Positions 1,440 to 9,524 are shown, counted from the first letter of the stretch. The stretch is DNA of 64,000 nt from Nitrospinales bacterium (GCA_038154245.1 JAYOZP010000002.1:50928-114927); one strand, 5' to 3'. Numbers and translations are program-made. Notes: generated from the letters alone by a model not told the origin.

Positions 1440-3632
1440 TTATTTGGAGAAAGAGGATAGTTGTACTTTTTCGATTCGAATTCCTAATTCTCTTTGATCG
1501 TTAGATTCCGAGATTTCGCTAGGAGTGAAGGTTTTATCAAGACGAATGGATAAAAGGTTTCCATTCTGTTTTAACCTAGAGAGGTCTATCGGATAAGCAT
1601 TTTGAAATTTACCCGATTTACCTCCGAACAACCCTAGTTTTTGATCATTGATGAAGATAGCCGCGCTAAGCCCATTTTTGAATATTTTTGGGATTTCACC
1701 TTGAATGATTAATTTTACGGGGTGGTCCGGCTTATTGAATAAGATCGAGCCGTCTTTTTTCATCCAACGAAAAAGTCCGCCCTGGTCCCTTTCCAGACCA
1801 TGCCATCCGTCGAGCAAAAATAAATCGGGTAAACCACGCGTTAATTTATAGGCTTCGTTTTCGAAAATCGTGTCGCCAAAACGGGTATTTAATATATCCT
1901 CGTTTGCGACGTTATTATTAGATAGGGTGGCGTTTATAGAATCTTTTAATGGATCAAAAAAATAATTTGAATTGGGTTGGCCCGTAAAAGGCGAGAGAAT
2001 CCAGAATCCCCAAGGTTCGATTTTACCGGTTAATTTGATTTTTTTATTTCTCAAAAAATAAGAAAGCCATGCTTCGTCAGTCGGTGTACGAGAGTGAACC
2101 AGAATTTTAGAGTCGGAAGGCAAATCGATTTTTTCCAACGCCATGATGTCGGACCCTATTACTGGGTGTCGCATTGGACTAGAACCTTCAATATATGTTT
2201 TTAGATTCCAAAAAAAGCCGGTTAGTAAAATACCAATTATTACTCCTCGGATAGCGGTATTACCGAGCGATCGGATCGCCCAAATCCCTCCGATAACAAC
2301 AGTCAGAATCAGAGGGAATACAGCTACCACAGAATGTTTATAAAAATGGTATCGATAATCTATGACGAAAAAGTAGCTGGCGAGCAGGGCCATAAAGCCT
2401 ATATCCGCTAAAATAAGCGTTTCTTTTTTCTTAATAGAAACATAGAGACCCGCTAACGCTAAGAGAGACCAAAGCCAACCGGTTACGCGAATGGCTTTGC
2501 CTTCCAGAGACCCATGATTTAAAGAGAAATGCGGGCCAAATCCAAATAGTTCTTCAATGTATGCGACTCTTGGAATATTTTGCGTAAAAGTGGAAGTGAT
2601 TTTAGCGTATTCGCCAGCGTATGCGGCAATCCACCATATGGTTATAGGCGTAATGAAGCAGGCGAAACCAAGAATGATAAGAGAATTTTTAATCGCAAGG
2701 TTCCATTGTTTAAAGTTTGCTCGAAACTTTAATACGCCATAAAACCCAGCCGCTCCCAGAAGGTGAACTAGCATAAAGCCATACATGGTTAAAAAACCGG
2801 CGATGATAAAAGAATAAAACGCCAGGTCCATTTTTTTATCCGTCTCCAAGGCGATTTTTAAAAAACCTAATCCTAGGATATAAAACATCATTCCTAAAAT
2901 TTGCGGAAGTTGGCCAATAAGCGGCCAATTAAAATAAGAAACGTTTATCGCCGTGAGAAATGCGACTAGAAGCGCCGATCTTTTATCGAATTCAAAACCG
3001 ACCCGGCAAGAAGCGTATGCCGCAATAGGAAGGAACGCTCCCAAAACGGCGGAGACTGCGAGATATATTTTAAAAGCTGGAACTCCAAAGATTGCGGAAA
3101 ATGCGGACAGCAGAAAAAAATACGGGAACAATTCGTTGTATTCAAAAATTTGACTCAGCATTTGAGTCATTGGTTTTTCGAAATCCGGAGAAACTTTATC
3201 GTGCCACGAATGATCTAGAAAGTAATCCGCAGGGAAAGAAACAAAAGCGCCGTAGCTTTGATAGGAGGAAGTTATGAAACCGGTTTCGGCCAAAACCCGC
3301 ATAGTGGGAAAAGCCGCCAAAATCCATATCAATATAAGCCACGGAGGACAGTCAGAATCTTTAAACGGATTTACTCTGTTGCGAATAATTTGGAAAGCTG
3401 TAAAAGAAGCGCAGATTAAAAACGCCGCCCATCCTCCAATGGAAACTGGCAACCCAGCGAGACTTGCGTAAAGAGGGATAATCGATAAAGGGATGATTGC
3501 CAGCGCCAGAGCTAGAGCTAAACGATATCGAGCGCAAACACCCTGGCACAAAGAAACCGCCAAACCCCATCCAGAAAGATATAAAACGCTTAGGATGGCT
3601 CCATAAAGAGTTAGATGTTTTAAAACGATCAT
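1440..3632 (-). CDS. large polytopic membrane protein with C-terminal soluble domain (GT-C/PMT-like glycosyltransferase suspected, unproven)
   Basis: 730-aa ORF. The N-terminal ~520 aa are almost all hydrophobic helices. The C-terminal ~200 aa are hydrophilic (WHGLERDQGGLFRWM...). Call rests on architecture only; no catalytic motif recognised. Confidence 0.5.
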   Translation of the reverse strand: MIVLKHLTLYGAILSVLYLSGWGLAVSLCQGVCARYRLALALALAIIPLSIIPLYASLAGLPVSIGGWAAFLICASFTAFQIIRNRVNPFKDSDCPPWLILIWILAAFPTMRVLAETGFITSSYQSYGAFVSFPADYFLDHSWHDKVSPDFEKPMTQMLSQIFEYNELFPYFFLLSAFSAIFGVPAFKIYLAVSAVLGAFLPIAAYASCRVGFEFDKRSALLVAFLTAINVSYFNWPLIGQLPQILGMMFYILGLGFLKIALETDKKMDLAFYSFIIAGFLTMYGFMLVHLLGAAGFYGVLKFRANFKQWNLAIKNSLIILGFACFITPITIWWIAAYAGEYAKITSTFTQNIPRVAYIEELFGFGPHFSLNHGSLEGKAIRVTGWLWSLLALAGLYVSIKKKETLILADIGFMALLASYFFVIDYRYHFYKHSVVAVFPLILTVVIGGIWAIRSLGNTAIRGVIIGILLTGFFWNLKTYIEGSSPMRHPVIGSDIMALEKIDLPSDSKILVHSRTPTDEAWLSYFLRNKKIKLTGKIEPWGFWILSPFTGQPNSNYFFDPLKDSINATLSNNNVANEDILNTRFGDTIFENEAYKLTRGLPDLFLLDGWHGLERDQGGLFRWMKKDGSILFNKPDHPVKLIIQGEIPKIFKNGLSAAIFINDQKLGLFGGKSGKFQNAYPIDLSRLKQNGNLLSIRLDKTFTPSEISESNDQRELGIRIEKVQLSSFSK

Positions 3633-3779
3633 TTAGATTTCGAAATTGAAGAAAAATCGCCATAGGTTAGGTGGCTAACGCCATATAATAACACCTTTAT
3701 GAAACAGTCAAACTTGTTGGAGCGAAATATTCTCACTAATTAATATAGAAAACTTTTTACGATAAAGACGGCTCTTTAT

Positions 3780-3844
3780 ATTTGAAACTTTTCCGTAATA
3801 TTTAGCGGCAGTCGCGGCAACTGCACTTATATTGAATCGCCGAA
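3780..3844 (+). repeat. 65-nt direct repeat, copy 1 (decayed duplicate of the 5' end of the MBL-fold gene)
   Basis: 61/65 identical to 4682-4746. The last 41 nt (3804-3844 vs 4706-4746) are identical. In the MBL frame this copy reads ATT TGA where copy 2 reads ATT TTA. Confidence 0.9.
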
Positions 3845-3865
3845 GGTTTGATTTTTTTCAAAATA

Positions 3866-3897
3866 TTGACGTTAAAAGTGTAGTGTATTAAACTACA
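3866..3897 (+). promoter_or_regulatory. putative sigma70-type promoter plus operator palindrome for higBA
   Basis: TTGACG (3866-3871), 17-nt spacer, TAAACT (3889-3894). Inverted repeat TGTAGT (3879-3884) / ACTACA (3892-3897) overlaps the -10. The higB ATG at 3901 is 7 nt past the -10 and has no Shine-Dalgarno. Confidence 0.4.
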
Positions 3898-3900
3898 ATT

Positions 3901-4182
3901 ATGATAAAGAGTTTTAAAGATAAAAGAACTGAAGATATCTACAACAATATCATTGTCAAAAAAGTTGAATTAAAAATTCTAAAAAAAGCTTTACGTCGTT
4001 TGAAATATATTGATGCTGCAAAAAAAATTGAAGACTTGATGGTTCCTCCTTCAAACAAACTAGAAAAAAAGAAGGGTAAGTTGAAAGATTTTTATGCGAT
4101 TTGGGTAAACGATCAATATAGGATTATTTTTAGATGGAAGGATGGGAACACCTACGATGCACAGTTTGTTGATTATCATTAG
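3901..4182 (+). CDS. higB: HigB toxin (RelE/ParE superfamily, plasmid maintenance killer protein)
   Basis: 93 aa. MIKSFKDKRTEDIY... and the C-terminal ...YRIIFRWKDGNTYDAQFVDYH match the HigB family pattern. Toxin-first gene order with a HigA gene 16 nt downstream. Confidence 0.9.
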   Translation: MIKSFKDKRTEDIYNNIIVKKVELKILKKALRRLKYIDAAKKIEDLMVPPSNKLEKKKGKLKDFYAIWVNDQYRIIFRWKDGNTYDAQFVDYH

Positions 4183-4198
4183 GGAGTGAGAAAAAATT

Positions 4199-4498
4199 AT
4201 GAAGACTATACCAAACGAACATCCCGGCGTAATGCTGAAAGAAGATTTTCTAGACGACTTGGATATCAAGCCGGGTACCTTTGCTAGGGCAATAGGAGTT
4301 GATCGCACGGCTATAAAAAATATTATTGATGGTAAGCGCAGTATTACAGCTGAGATGGCTTTACGCTTTGCTCTTTTTTTTGGAACAAGCGCTGAATTTT
4401 GGTTGAATTTGCAAAAAGATTACGATTTAAGAACCGCTAAAGAGGAAAAGTTGTCCGAATTTAAGAAAATTGTACGGCCTTATGCGATAGATGTTTAA
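4199..4498 (+). CDS. higA: HigA antitoxin (XRE-family HTH)
   Basis: 99 aa. HPGVMLKEDFLDDLDIKPGTFARAIGVDRTAIKNIIDGKRSITAEMALRFALFFGTSAEFWLNLQKDYDLR is the canonical HigA HTH_3 signature. Confidence 0.9.
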   Translation: MKTIPNEHPGVMLKEDFLDDLDIKPGTFARAIGVDRTAIKNIIDGKRSITAEMALRFALFFGTSAEFWLNLQKDYDLRTAKEEKLSEFKKIVRPYAIDV

Positions 4499-4681
4499 GA
4501 AAAATACTGGAATATCTATCCGAACTTCGTTACTTCCATTATAGCTAGATTAAATTTCTTTTTAGATAAGAAATGTGATTTAAAAGTGGTTACAATAGCA
4601 ACGGAATTATTCTTTTCTATGTTTCATATCTTTGAAACGTTTTGATTTTTCAACCAATCCATTTCCTAAAGGAATTAACCC

Positions 4682-4746
4682 ATTTTAAACTTCTCCGTAA
4701 TATCCAGCGGCAGTCGCGGCAACTGCACTTATATTGAATCGCCGAA
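4682..4746 (+). repeat. 65-nt direct repeat, copy 2 (functional 5' end of the MBL-fold gene)
   Basis: See copy 1 at 3780-3844. Translates in frame as ILNFSVISSGSRGNCTYIESPN, continuous with the downstream MBL ORF. Confidence 0.9.
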
Positions 4747-5452
4747 CGCAAAAATTATTATCGATGCGGGTATCAGCCAAAAAGAGCTAGCCGCACGTCT
4801 CAAGTTGATTGATAGATGTCCAGAAAACTTAGACGGCATTTTTATGACTCATGAACATTCGGATCATTTAAAGGGTATTGGTCCCTTGGCGCGAAAATTT
4901 GGAATTCCCGTTTATTCCACCGTGGGCGCTCATGAGGCGGCAAAAAAAGTGGTGGGTAACGTCGATGATTGGCGTTATTTTAAACCTTTAGATCGGATTA
5001 CTATTAAAGATTTAGAAATAGAAGCTTACCCTACTCCTCACGACGCCGCCGACCCGGTTGCTTTTGTGGCGCGTTGCAATGGTTTTACTCTTGGACAAGC
5101 AACCGATTTGGGTTGTTTAACTCCTATGGTGTTAGAAAAAATGACTTTAGCCGACGCTTTGCTATTAGAAGCCAATCACGACGTGGAAATGTTAGAAGTG
5201 GGCCCGTATTCCTGGCCTTTAAAGCAAAGGATTAAGGGCGATAGCGGTCATTTATCAAATAAGGCTTGTGCGGAACTGGTTTCTAAAGTTTCTCATGACG
5301 AATTAAGGATTTTGGTTTTGATGCATTTGAGCGAAAAAAATAACCATCCTGAGATAGCCAAAGTAACCGTGAGTCCTTTTATAAAAAACTCTAAAACTCG
5401 ACTGGTGTTAGCGGAACAGCACCGACCTACCGAACTTTTTAGTTTGTGTTAA
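4682..5452 (+). CDS. MBL-fold metallo-hydrolase (YycJ-like); start codon uncertain, candidate ATT at 4682
   Basis: The track ORF (TTG 4805) begins inside the fold. The frame is open back to TAA at 4676-4678 and encodes the conserved N-terminus (F)SVISSGSRGNCTYIES..KIIIDAGIS before THEHSDH (HxHxDH). No ATG/GTG/TTG precedes this region. AAGGA (4669-4673) lies 8 nt before ATT 4682. Confidence 0.7.
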   Translation: MLNFSVISSGSRGNCTYIESPNAKIIIDAGISQKELAARLKLIDRCPENLDGIFMTHEHSDHLKGIGPLARKFGIPVYSTVGAHEAAKKVVGNVDDWRYFKPLDRITIKDLEIEAYPTPHDAADPVAFVARCNGFTLGQATDLGCLTPMVLEKMTLADALLLEANHDVEMLEVGPYSWPLKQRIKGDSGHLSNKACAELVSKVSHDELRILVLMHLSEKNNHPEIAKVTVSPFIKNSKTRLVLAEQHRPTELFSLC

Positions 5453-5666
5453 GAAGTTTAGGAGAGCAGCTGGTTAAAGTGGAATTTCTAAATTAAACTT
5501 CTTAAAGCTTCGCATTTTAATTAAGGAAAATTTAACCTAGATTCTTCGTCGCCATTTCATGGTTCCTCAAGAATGACGTTTAATTTTACTTTTTAGATAC
5601 GCAATATTTTAACTGACAGATGAAATTAAAAGTAAGTTCGTTTTTCGATTGTGGAATTAAAGCTCA

Positions 5667-8480: not shown

Positions 8481-8570
8481 TTTAAAAAATTAAAAGGAAT
8501 TTAAAATAGGGAAGTTTAATAAAAAATAAACTTTTTAGAGATAAGGGAATAGGGCTAGAGGGGTTTCTAA

Positions 8571-9524
8571 TTAAGATTTAGCGAGTTCTTTATTGAGGTC
8601 TAATAAATTTTGAAAAAATTCTTGAAAATTATTGATTCGTGTAACTCCAGGGACTGAATTGGAATATCCTTTTCCGCCAACAATAATTTTAATTTCCTTT
8701 TTGATTCTTTCCCTAAGATTTGAAATTAATTTAGCGGATTTTTGTTTATCGTAATAACAAGAAACGCCTAAACATAAAATATCGCTGTTTGTTTTTAATA
8801 CTGCCGAAATAATTTCCTCGCATGGAGTATCGGACCCTATAAAAATTACTTTGTATTTGCAGATAGCGGCTAAAGTGGCGGCCATTTGCAACCCTAGATT
8901 GTGATCGTCCCCTGGAAGCGATGTTATTAGAATTTTAGCTCCATCGTTTCTTTCATTAAGCTGACGCCATTTCGAGCCTATAAAATCATACAAACGTTCG
9001 GAAGCAAAATGCTCTTGGGAAATAGAAATTTCTCCTGTTTCCCAACCTCTCCCAATTTTATCTAAAAAAGGAACGGCTAATTGAGTGACAAAACTCAAAC
9101 CACCCATTTTTGCCCATTCTTCAAAAAATCCATCGTCTAAGGTTTGATAAGAAAATTTATGGGCGGCTTCAATCCAACCCTCGATAATTAATTCGCGAGA
9201 ATTTTCGATTTGGGTTTCATTAGTTTTAGAATGTGCTGGAGACGAACTAGGTAATAAAGAACTTATATTGAGCAAATTTTCAATTTCGCTGAGAGAGGCT
9301 TTGGCAAGTTTTCCTGGGCGGTGACCTTCTTTTAGAGCCCGCGCGATTGCTCTTAGACGGGGAACCTCTTCCTTAGAATATCTTCTGTGGCCTGAAGGAA
9401 GTCTAAAGGGTACAGGGGTTCCGTAGCGTTTTTCCCAAACTCTAAGAGTATGAGTACTAATTCCAGTTAAACGGGCGAGTTCGCCAATCGGTAAACCATT
9501 ATCATTTAATGGGGTATCTAACAT
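8571..9524 (-). CDS. MerR-family regulator with C-terminal cobalamin (B12)-binding domain (CarH/LitR-like)
   Basis: 317 aa. N-terminal MerR HTH LPIGELARLTGISTHTLRVWEKRYG. C-terminal B12 motifs GDDHNLG (DxHxxG), ILCLGVS and IIVGGKG. Confidence 0.8.
   Translation of the reverse strand: MLDTPLNDNGLPIGELARLTGISTHTLRVWEKRYGTPVPFRLPSGHRRYSKEEVPRLRAIARALKEGHRPGKLAKASLSEIENLLNISSLLPSSSPAHSKTNETQIENSRELIIEGWIEAAHKFSYQTLDDGFFEEWAKMGGLSFVTQLAVPFLDKIGRGWETGEISISQEHFASERLYDFIGSKWRQLNERNDGAKILITSLPGDDHNLGLQMAATLAAICKYKVIFIGSDTPCEEIISAVLKTNSDILCLGVSCYYDKQKSAKLISNLRERIKKEIKIIVGGKGYSNSVPGVTRINNFQEFFQNLLDLNKELAKS

What the first reader, a model, noticed from the sequence alone, without database searches (positions are those of the whole stretch)
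3780..4746. higBA cassette bounded by 65-bp direct repeats that duplicate the 5' end of the neighbouring MBL-fold gene
3780-3844 and 4682-4746 are direct repeats with 61/65 identity. All four mismatches fall in the first 24 nt, and the last 41 nt are identical. Similarity stops abruptly on both sides. The 837 bp between them hold only a promoter-like element, higB, higA and a short tail. Copy 2 is the real 5' coding end of the MBL hydrolase (SVISSGSRGNCTYIES). Copy 1 is the same sequence with a TGA in that frame. A repeat this long with an identical core looks like attL/attR of a site-specific insertion into a gene 5' end, or a recombination scar. It does not look like a transposase target duplication. 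It suggests the TA pair arrived as a minimal mobile cassette, or is the last remnant of a larger integrated element.
Basis: seen in the sequence. Interest (0 to 1): 0.6.

Follow-up and report, generated by a model that had tools for sequence, protein, structure and literature searches.

The report
Stray gene-start copy beside higBA
The 65-base repeat is real, but it does not border a mobile toxin-antitoxin cassette; one copy is the true start of a hydrolase gene and the other is a young, dead duplicate dropped nearby, most likely an ordinary DNA-repair scar.

Summary
The repeat (3780-3844 / 4682-4746, 61/65, last 41 nt identical) is real. It occurs only twice in the genome and is reproduced in contigs from two sequencing runs.

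The attL/attR reading fails the empty-site test:
- All four congeners (Nitrospinota) have one copy.
- Their ~125 nt upstream of it match the sequence upstream of copy 2 (the "tail", 4556-4681). This is the native MBL promoter/leader.
- None match the sequence upstream of copy 1.
- The higBA module shared with G003 is only 3861-4502.
- The 16 nt between copy 1 and higBA continue the left flank seen in sister genome G001. Removing 3757-3847 makes the two genomes collinear.

Copy 1 is therefore a ~91-nt lineage-specific patch. It is about five times younger than the G000-G001 split. higBA is as diverged from its G003 copy as core genes are.

No recombinase lies within 25 kb, and no other cassette carries the core.

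The space between the membrane gene and the MBL leader is a variable slot: higBA here, parDE in G001, other cargo elsewhere.

As a positive control, a tRNA-Glu-linked TA cassette on contig C46 passes the same test. This scan has noted that kind of cassette before on other DNA.

Verdict: an ordinary recombination or repair scar, of low interest.

The parts
1440..3632 (-). 730-aa polytopic membrane protein gene, the conserved left flank of the variable slot
   Evidence: ORF list. No Pfam hit. Orthologous DNA in G001, G002 and G004 at 71-76% nt identity.
3633..3756 (.). Left-flank intergenic DNA (promoter side of the membrane gene), collinear with G001
   Evidence: blastn collinearity with G001 to 3758 and with G004 to 3716. 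Alignment.
3757..3779 (+). 23 nt of junction DNA left of copy 1. Possibly a badly degraded copy of the leader end (TAAAG...CTC), or filler
   Evidence: Absent from G001. No source elsewhere in the genome. nhmmer extends homology only weakly to 3771.
3780..3844 (+). Copy 1: dead duplicate of the MBL start codon plus the first 65 nt of its CDS (ATT then TGA). Specific to this genome
   Evidence: Reproduced in Logan contigs of two runs. No fold signal, z = -0.25.
3845..3860 (.). Continuation of the native left flank (GGTTTGATTTTTTTCA). It matches G001 directly after the point where collinearity was interrupted
   Evidence: Alignment after removing 3757-3847. 16 of 17 positions match with one gap at the expected place. 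Chance is about 8e-4 per AT-rich 45-nt window.
3861..4502 (+). higBA module proper. Promoter TTGACG (3866-3871), 17-nt spacer, TAAACT (3889-3894). Palindrome TGTAGT/ACTACA (3879-3884 / 3892-3897). higB 3901-4182, higA 4199-4498
   Evidence: 84% nt identity to G003 8523-9160 with sharp ends. HigB PF05015, 71 bits. HigA TIGR02607, 99.5 bits. Promoter scan.
4503..4555 (.). 53 nt of unknown origin between higA and the native leader
   Evidence: No homologue in the four relatives or elsewhere in the genome.
4556..4681 (+). Native MBL promoter/leader. Contains a TACAAT box, an 8-bp hairpin (4619-4626 / 4633-4640) and a Shine-Dalgarno sequence (AAGGA)
   Evidence: Conserved directly upstream of the single MBL gene in G001-G004 at 80-90%. 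Hairpin with 3 compensatory pairs. Fold z = -2.98. No Rfam match.
4682..4746 (+). Copy 2: the genuine first 65 nt of the MBL CDS, beginning at a conserved ATT start codon
   Evidence: The first 35 nt are invariant in all five genomes. ATT at this codon in 9 of 15 outgroup loci.
4682..5452 (+). MBL-fold hydrolase gene (256 aa), syntenic with the downstream ARH-like gene across the order
   Evidence: Pfam Lactamase_B_2 and Lactamase_B. Orthologue found in 39 of 40 related genomes. ARH gene downstream in all 15 outgroup loci.

Best explanation
Copy 2 and the ~125 nt before it are the ancestral promoter, leader, AUU start and first 21 codons of the MBL gene. Copy 1 is a young, non-functional ectopic duplicate of the start region (about -10 to +65). 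It sits in a ~91-nt patch (3757-3847) inserted into the left-flank intergenic DNA, 16 nt before the higBA promoter module. The most likely origin is a single illegitimate copy-and-paste event. A break or stalled fork in the T-rich flank primed on the MBL start region 0.9 kb downstream on the same strand. It copied ~70-90 nt and then rejoined through the TTT microhomology present at both junctions. Afterwards the patch picked up four point changes, including the TGA. higBA did not arrive with the repeat. It occupies a long-standing variable slot between the membrane gene and the MBL leader, and modules in that slot are exchanged through the conserved flanks (higBA here and in G003, parDE in G001). 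Shown: repeat anatomy, uniqueness, native status of the leader and of 3845-3860, lineage specificity, relative age, absence of a recombinase. Inferred: the molecular pathway (one step or two), neutrality of copy 1, vertical descent of higBA.
For: There is a single copy of leader plus 5' end in each of four congeners, and only G000 has a second copy. The relatives' upstream 125 nt match window 4556-4681, not the DNA left of copy 1. The leader profile hits only 3771-3851 and nothing else in any variable segment or flank. With 3757-3847 removed, G000 and G001 are collinear across the site. The 16/17 match of 3847-3862 to G001 has a chance probability of about 1e-3. higBA homology with G003 covers only 3861-4502. 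Four-fold degenerate sites are 57% identical between G000 and G001 and 44% identical for higBA between G000 and G003. Copy 1 differs from copy 2 at only 4/65 sites. P(<=4/65) is 5e-5 if copy 1 dated to the G000-G001 split, giving a relative age of about 0.2. All four changes lie in copy 1, because copy 2's first 35 nt are invariant in five species. The nearest PF00589 hit is ~25 kb away and Xer-sized. No other copy of the core was found in the genome, the genus, metagenome contigs or viral contigs. Copy 1 has no fold, promoter or terminator signal beyond what copy 2 also has. The junctions are reproduced in contigs of two runs. The same empty-site test succeeds on a real att-bounded TA cassette in this genome.
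Against: All four mismatches fall in the first 24 nt (P 0.016 one-sided, 0.03 for either end). This is what an att arm or crossover structure, or partial gene conversion, would also give. The pathway is inferred from a single end product. The microhomology is only TTT in T-rich DNA. The 23 nt left of copy 1 are unexplained. Only one sister genome (G001) informs the collinearity argument. The age estimate assumes neutrality and no gene conversion.
Confidence: 0.6

Rival explanations
1. Two-step scar. A tandem duplication of the 902-bp unit 3845-4746 (flank end, higBA, leader, first 65 nt of MBL) created the junction CGCCGAA|GGTTTGA. An internal deletion then removed almost the whole left unit and left only its last ~86 nt.
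For: The junction at 3844|3845 joins MBL +65 to native left-flank sequence, exactly as the novel joint of a tandem duplication would. Tandem duplications are common in bacteria and are often remodelled (general knowledge).
Against: The later deletion would have to start within ~3 nt of the duplication's own left end to leave G000 collinear with G001. That is a coincidence of roughly a few in 900. The model needs two events where one is enough.
Confidence: 0.2
2. The repeats are attL/attR, or a long target duplication, of a minimal integrase-less higBA cassette (CIME-like) that integrated into the MBL 5' end. Alternatively they are the remnant of a larger element.
For: The repeat is 65 nt, duplicates a gene end and has a perfect 41-nt core with divergent outer part. 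The same genome has genuine att-bounded TA mini-cassettes at tRNA-Glu. The scan has seen such cassettes elsewhere.
Against: The empty-site test fails. In all four relatives the single copy is preceded by the leader, which lies inside the repeats in G000. 16 nt at the left inner end and 126 nt at the right inner end are native DNA. G003's higBA has no such repeat at its borders. Copy 1 is much younger than the higBA divergence. No recombinase is nearby, and there is no second site with the core.
Confidence: 0.07
3. Copy 1 is kept because it does something. It could be a mimic of the MBL AUU initiation region that titrates a regulator, a start-stop (AUU-UGA) mini-cistron, or a partner for RecA-mediated excision that would silence MBL and remove higBA together.
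For: The 41-nt core is perfectly conserved between the copies while the rest has drifted. Copy 1 begins exactly at an unusual, conserved AUU start codon.
Against: It is present in one genome only. It has no structural or promoter signal of its own. No plus-strand promoter is evident upstream of it. Four changes in 65 nt fit neutral drift. The clustering is only marginally significant.
Confidence: 0.05

Closest known systems
Integration into the 5' end of a protein gene with replacement of its start (SXT/R391 elements in prfC; Hochhut and Waldor 1999, cited from my own knowledge)
   Same: Direct repeats that duplicate the 5' coding end of a conserved gene, with accessory DNA between them.
   Different: There the element brings the new promoter and 5' end, and the native ones stay outside attL. 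Here the promoter/leader inside the repeats is the native one, as shown by four congeners. There is also no integrase and no empty site.
CIMEs, cis-mobilizable elements: decayed integrative elements that keep attL and attR but have lost integration and transfer genes (PMC5704250)
   Same: Small integrase-less cargo between direct repeats of a target gene end.
   Different: The defining att borders are not met at the MBL locus. They are met by the tRNA-Glu-linked TA cassette on contig C46 of the same genome.
Insertion with long target duplication, and allelic substitution of restriction-modification units (Furuta, Abe and Kobayashi 2010, PMC2853133)
   Same: A duplication longer than 30 bp next to an addiction-type gene pair with no mobility gene. 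The higBA versus parDE alternation at one slot in G000 and G001 matches their 'substitution' class.
   Different: Their criterion is that the repeat aligns once in the comparison genome with the same outer flanks. That criterion is not met here. The duplicated segment is itself the only inserted DNA.
Short dispersed duplications or templated insertions from microhomology-mediated repair or template switching (reviewed in PMC12426944; a bacterial MMEJ example in preprint 10.1101/2022.03.14.484287; both seen only as abstracts)
   Same: A ~70-90-nt copy of nearby same-strand sequence inserted between two positions that are adjacent in the sister genome, with 3-nt microhomology.
   Different: The pathway is not demonstrated in this phylum. 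The patch is longer than typical templated fillers, and its left 23 nt are unexplained.
HigB/HigA type II toxin-antitoxin modules
   Same: Toxin-first order. HigB-like RelE-fold toxin (PF05015) and HigA HTH antitoxin (TIGR02607 equivalog). Palindrome over the -10 box.
   Different: Nothing unusual. The nearest HigB outside the genus is <=69% identical and sits in unrelated marine phyla.

Membership tests
Site-specific integrative element borders (attL/attR), including CIME | [quoted passage not shown] | tested here: met
   65 nt, 61/65 identical, equal to the first 65 nt of the MBL CDS.
Site-specific integrative element borders (attL/attR), including CIME | Empty site in relatives: one repeat copy, with the outer flanks of both copies contiguous | tested here: not met
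   Relatives have one copy, but its left neighbour is the leader, which is inner DNA in G000. The DNA left of copy 1 is 0.7-3.2 kb away. The same test is passed by the C46 tRNA-Glu cassette.
Site-specific integrative element borders (attL/attR), including CIME | All DNA between the repeats is element DNA | tested here: not met
   3845-3860 match G001's left flank. 4556-4681 are the conserved native leader. Only 3861-4502 are higBA-specific.
Site-specific integrative element borders (attL/attR), including CIME | A recombinase in cis, or sister elements using the same att core elsewhere | tested here: not met
   The nearest PF00589 hit is ~25 kb away and 295 aa. The core occurs nowhere else in the genome, the genus, metagenome contigs or viral contigs. 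Serine recombinases and transposases were not searched by profile. No long ORF other than those named lies within 9 kb.
Site-specific integrative element borders (attL/attR), including CIME | Excision to a circle and a repaired site | not testable with these tools
Logan k=31 contigs break inside the 41-nt core and cannot phase it.
Insertion with long target duplication (PMC2853133) | A duplication longer than 30 bp flanking an insert without mobility genes | tested here: met
   65-nt repeat, with only higBA between the copies.
Insertion with long target duplication (PMC2853133) | The comparison genome shows the target once, between the same outer flanks | tested here: not met
   as above.
HigBA type II toxin-antitoxin | HigB-like toxin and HigA antitoxin domains above curated cut-offs, toxin gene first | tested here: met
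   PF05015 at 71 bits (cut-off 27). TIGR02607 at 99.5 bits (cut-off 47.7). higB 3901-4182 precedes higA 4199-4498.
HigBA type II toxin-antitoxin | Toxicity of HigB and its neutralisation by HigA | not testable with these tools
   Needs expression in a laboratory strain.
Short dispersed duplication / templated repair patch | The inserted DNA is a copy of nearby sequence, and the two insertion flanks are adjacent in a sister genome | tested here: met
   Profile hit at 3771-3851 only. G000 without 3757-3847 is collinear with G001.
Short dispersed duplication / templated repair patch | Microhomology at both junctions | tested here: inconclusive
   Only TTT on each side, in T-rich DNA.

The most novel reading that the evidence does not exclude
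Copy 1 is not a passive scar. Together with copy 2 it would form a recombination switch or a regulatory mimic. Recombination across the 41-nt core would excise a 902-bp circle carrying higBA and the MBL promoter/leader. It would also fuse the promoterless, TGA-bearing copy 1 to the MBL gene. Loss of the toxin-antitoxin pair and silencing of a conserved AUU-initiated gene would then be coupled. Alternatively, copy 1 titrates whatever factor reads the unusual AUU start region.
Probability: 0.04. Interest if true: 0.55.

Novelty: new member of a known kind. Interest (0 to 1): 0.2.

Why it matters
It is mainly a cautionary result. A long direct repeat that duplicates a gene end next to a toxin-antitoxin pair looks like an att scar, and in this same genome one such case (tRNA-Glu, contig C46) really is one. 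Here the repeat is only a stray copy. What separates the two cases is whether the DNA just inside the repeats is foreign, and whether relatives join the outer flanks around a single copy. The locus also gives a clean example of a fixed intergenic slot where addiction modules are swapped between species (higBA or parDE). It also confirms that the neighbouring MBL gene uses a conserved AUU start codon.

Tried and rejected
1. Extended degenerate second leader left of copy 1. By eye, 3712-3756 resembled the leader. nhmmer with all filters off found nothing beyond 3771-3851 in G000, and nothing in G001's flank. Rejected.
2. Assembly artefact. Rejected: Logan contigs of two runs reproduce both junctions and the variant bases.
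3. Dispersed repeat family. Rejected: there are two copies only.
4. Terminator or insulator role for copy 1 plus the T-run. The only 'terminator-like' hit is the 5-bp GCAGT/ACTGC stem present in both copies, and the fold z-score is -0.25.
5. Known RNA family in the leader or tail. No Rfam match at E<=1.
6. Diversity-generating retroelement-type repeat pair. The mismatch pattern is not adenine-specific on either strand, the repeat is short, and no reverse transcriptase ORF is in the first 9 kb. This rests on reasoning, not a dedicated search.
7. Integron cassette. There is no integrase and no recurring attC-like repeat.
8. Source of the 23-nt (3757-3779) and 53-nt (4503-4555) junction pieces elsewhere in the genome. 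None found.
9. More relatives from metagenomes. The exact junction gave 0 hits. The degenerate 35-mer gave one contig of the G003 type, cut by its own end 177 nt upstream of the gene.
10. Read mapping for excision products.

Full report
OBSERVATION. The repeat is as described. Positions 3780-3844 and 4682-4746 share 61 of 65 bases. The mismatches are at 3784, 3791 and 3802-3803, and the last 41 nt are identical. Copy 2 is the beginning of the MBL-fold ORF. After a TAA at 4676-4678 the frame reads CCC ATT TTA AAC..., giving ILNFSVISSGSRGNCTYIES. Copy 1 has TGA as its second codon in that frame. The 65-mer occurs exactly twice in the 4.77-Mb genome.

However, Logan contigs from two runs (SRR26337550, SRR26337551) end at window 3833 and contain the left junction and all four variant bases. 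A 921-nt contig equals window 3815-4735. These contigs break 30 nt into the 41-nt core, as expected for k=31, so the sequence is real.

WHAT THE GENES ARE. higB (3901-4182) matches PF05015 at 71 bits. higA (4199-4498) matches the HigA equivalog TIGR02607 at 99.5 bits. The 256-aa protein from 4682 is an MBL-fold hydrolase. The gene on the left (1440-3632, minus strand) encodes a 730-aa membrane protein without a Pfam match. The gene on the right encodes an ADP-ribosylglycohydrolase-like protein. The record title of one congener places the genus in Nitrospinota.

EMPTY-SITE TEST. Four genomes of the same genus (G001-G004) carry the MBL orthologue at 85-96% aa identity. Each has the leader plus 5' end exactly once genome-wide, and only the window's genome has a second copy.

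The decisive point is what lies next to that single copy. That stretch contains a TACAAT box, an 8-bp hairpin with three compensatory pairs, and a Shine-Dalgarno sequence 7-10 nt before a conserved ATT. It is therefore the native promoter/leader of the MBL gene.

An insertion into the 5' end of the gene would leave the native leader outside, to the left of copy 1. This holds for site-specific integration and equally for insertion with long target duplication. The native leader is not there. A profile built from the five leaders, run with all filters off, hits only 3771-3851 (E 1.9e-22). It hits nothing else in any flank or variable segment.

WHERE THE higBA DNA BEGINS AND ENDS. G003 carries the same higBA at 84% nt identity. 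Homology runs only from 3861 to 4502, from a few bases before the -35 box to four bases past the higA stop. G003 has no MBL-like repeat at either end.

On the left, G000 and its closest relative G001 are collinear from the membrane gene to about 3756. After copy 1, the sequence GGTTTGATTTTTTTCAAA (3845-3862) matches what follows immediately in G001 (TTTGTATTTTTTTCAAAG). That is 16 of 17 positions with one gap, at the expected place. A match of this quality occurs in about 8 per 10,000 AT-rich windows. Deleting 3757-3847 from the window makes the two genomes collinear.

So copy 1 lies within a ~91-nt patch inserted into native flank DNA, 16 nt to the left of the higBA module. The repeats do not bound the cassette.

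THE SLOT. A variable segment lies between the membrane gene's promoter region and the MBL leader:
- G000: higBA.
- G001: ParD plus a truncated ParE, at the same two boundaries.
- G004: a coiled-coil gene and a YnfA gene.
- G002: ParE with a partner, YnfA, the coiled-coil gene and more.
- G003: a methylase/ParB-like island, higBA, the coiled-coil gene and YnfA.

This matches the 'allelic substitution' class described for restriction-modification units (PMC2853133).

TIMING. Four-fold degenerate sites are only 57% identical between G000 and G001 (147/256). For higBA between G000 and G003 they are 44% identical (21/48), at least as diverged as the flanking core genes (130/234). higBA has therefore been diverging in these two lineages for as long as the species have.

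Copy 1 differs from copy 2 at 4/65 sites. All four changes are in copy 1, since copy 2's first 35 nt are invariant in five species. If copy 1 were neutral and as old as the G000-G001 split, about 26% of its sites should differ. The probability of seeing four or fewer differences is 5e-5, and the relative age is about 0.2. The patch is recent and specific to this lineage. It is not coeval with higBA.

OTHER att CRITERIA. The nearest tyrosine-recombinase match is ~25 kb away and Xer-sized. The 41-nt core is absent from viral contigs. A degenerate 35-mer covering both copy types found one metagenome contig, of the native G003 type.

POSITIVE CONTROL. A census of local repeats in the genome turned up two ParE-type TA pairs on contig C46, bracketed by copies of a tRNA-Glu gene end. 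For the 759-nt one I ran the same comparison. In G001 and G003 the left-flank and right-flank matches overlap by exactly the 41-nt repeat, with no TA pair between them. This is a clean empty site. G004 has the cassette at 90% identity, above the core-gene level, beside tRNA-Glu fragments at another place.

Genuine integrase-less, att-bounded TA mini-cassettes therefore exist in this genus. They correspond to CIMEs (PMC5704250) and to cassettes this scan has reported before on other DNA. The MBL locus fails the test they pass.

MECHANISM. The end product is a dispersed direct duplication. A segment from about -10 (perhaps -21) to +65 of the MBL gene has been copied 0.9 kb upstream, between two positions that are adjacent in the sister genome. 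TTT is present at both joints.

I favour a single illegitimate copy-and-paste event, meaning template switching or break repair primed on the nearby sequence. The alternative is a tandem duplication of 3845-4746 followed by an internal deletion. That would require the deletion to begin within about 3 nt of the duplication's own left end.

The clustering of the four mismatches in the first 24 nt is only marginally significant (P 0.016-0.03). It could reflect chance, error-prone synthesis at the start of the patch, or partial gene conversion. Copy 1 shows no fold, promoter or terminator signal of its own, so I regard it as non-functional. The pathway itself is inferred, not shown.

VERDICT. The feature is an ordinary scar next to an ordinary higBA module in a variable slot. 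Interest is low.

Noticed in passing
own genome, contig C46:23063-23893 (outside the window; locus L109 1564-2394): A 759-nt ParE-like toxin-antitoxin pair sits exactly between a tRNA-Glu(CUC) gene and a perfect 41-nt copy of that gene's 3' half. G001 and G003 show the empty site, with flank matches overlapping by exactly 41 nt. G004 has the same cassette at 90% nt identity, beside tRNA-Glu fragments elsewhere (C25:~429.5-432.4 kb). There is no intact tRNA or obvious integrase within 17 kb there. This is a real integrase-less, att-bounded TA mini-cassette of the kind the scan has reported in other genomes.
   Followed up: partly
own genome, contig C46:17514-18655 (locus L110): A second tRNA-Glu(CUC) gene is aberrant: 87 nt, with a 19-nt palindromic insert (CCCAGTCACACACGTGTGG) in the T-arm. 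A partial copy carrying the same insert lies 1.09 kb away, with a ParD/ParE pair between them. The partial copy lies on the 5' side of the tRNA, the reverse of the usual order.
   Followed up: no
window 4682-4684 and loci L004-L022: The MBL gene starts at ATT in all five genomes of the genus and in 9 of 15 outgroup loci across the order. The rest have ATA (one locus) or TTG or CTG one codon further on (most others). Each has a Shine-Dalgarno sequence 6-10 nt upstream.
   Followed up: partly
window 4590-4700: The conserved ~95-nt 5' leader of the MBL gene has an 8-bp hairpin (4619-4626 / 4633-4640) with compensatory changes at 3 pairs across five genomes. Fold z = -2.98. No Rfam family matches.
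   Followed up: partly
G001 (locus L023, reverse-complemented, 8840-9400): At the position of higBA, G001 has parD (88 aa) and a parE that matches only the first 52 of 89 profile positions in one frame. The C-terminal part (...IEIVRVLNGSMD...) is readable in another frame. parE is probably frameshifted.
   Followed up: no
G003 (locus L024, 4356-8475): Upstream of its higBA, G003 has an island with a 408-aa methylase-like ORF, a 321-aa ParB-like ORF and a 279-aa ORF. No orthologue of the 730-aa membrane gene lies within 8.5 kb. The slot has been much enlarged or rearranged in that species.
   Followed up: no
window 4555-4574 and 5586-5605: The motif TTTCTTTTTAGATAAGAAAT at the start of the MBL promoter region recurs at 85% identity (TTACTTTTTAGATACGCAAT) about 60 nt upstream of the ARH-like gene. 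It may be a shared promoter or operator element.
   Followed up: no
locus L028 (metagenome contig Ga0209992_10000002, 584 kb): This large contig of the G003-type organism starts 177 nt upstream of the MBL gene, right at the edge of the variable slot. That is consistent with strain heterogeneity breaking assemblies there.
   Followed up: no
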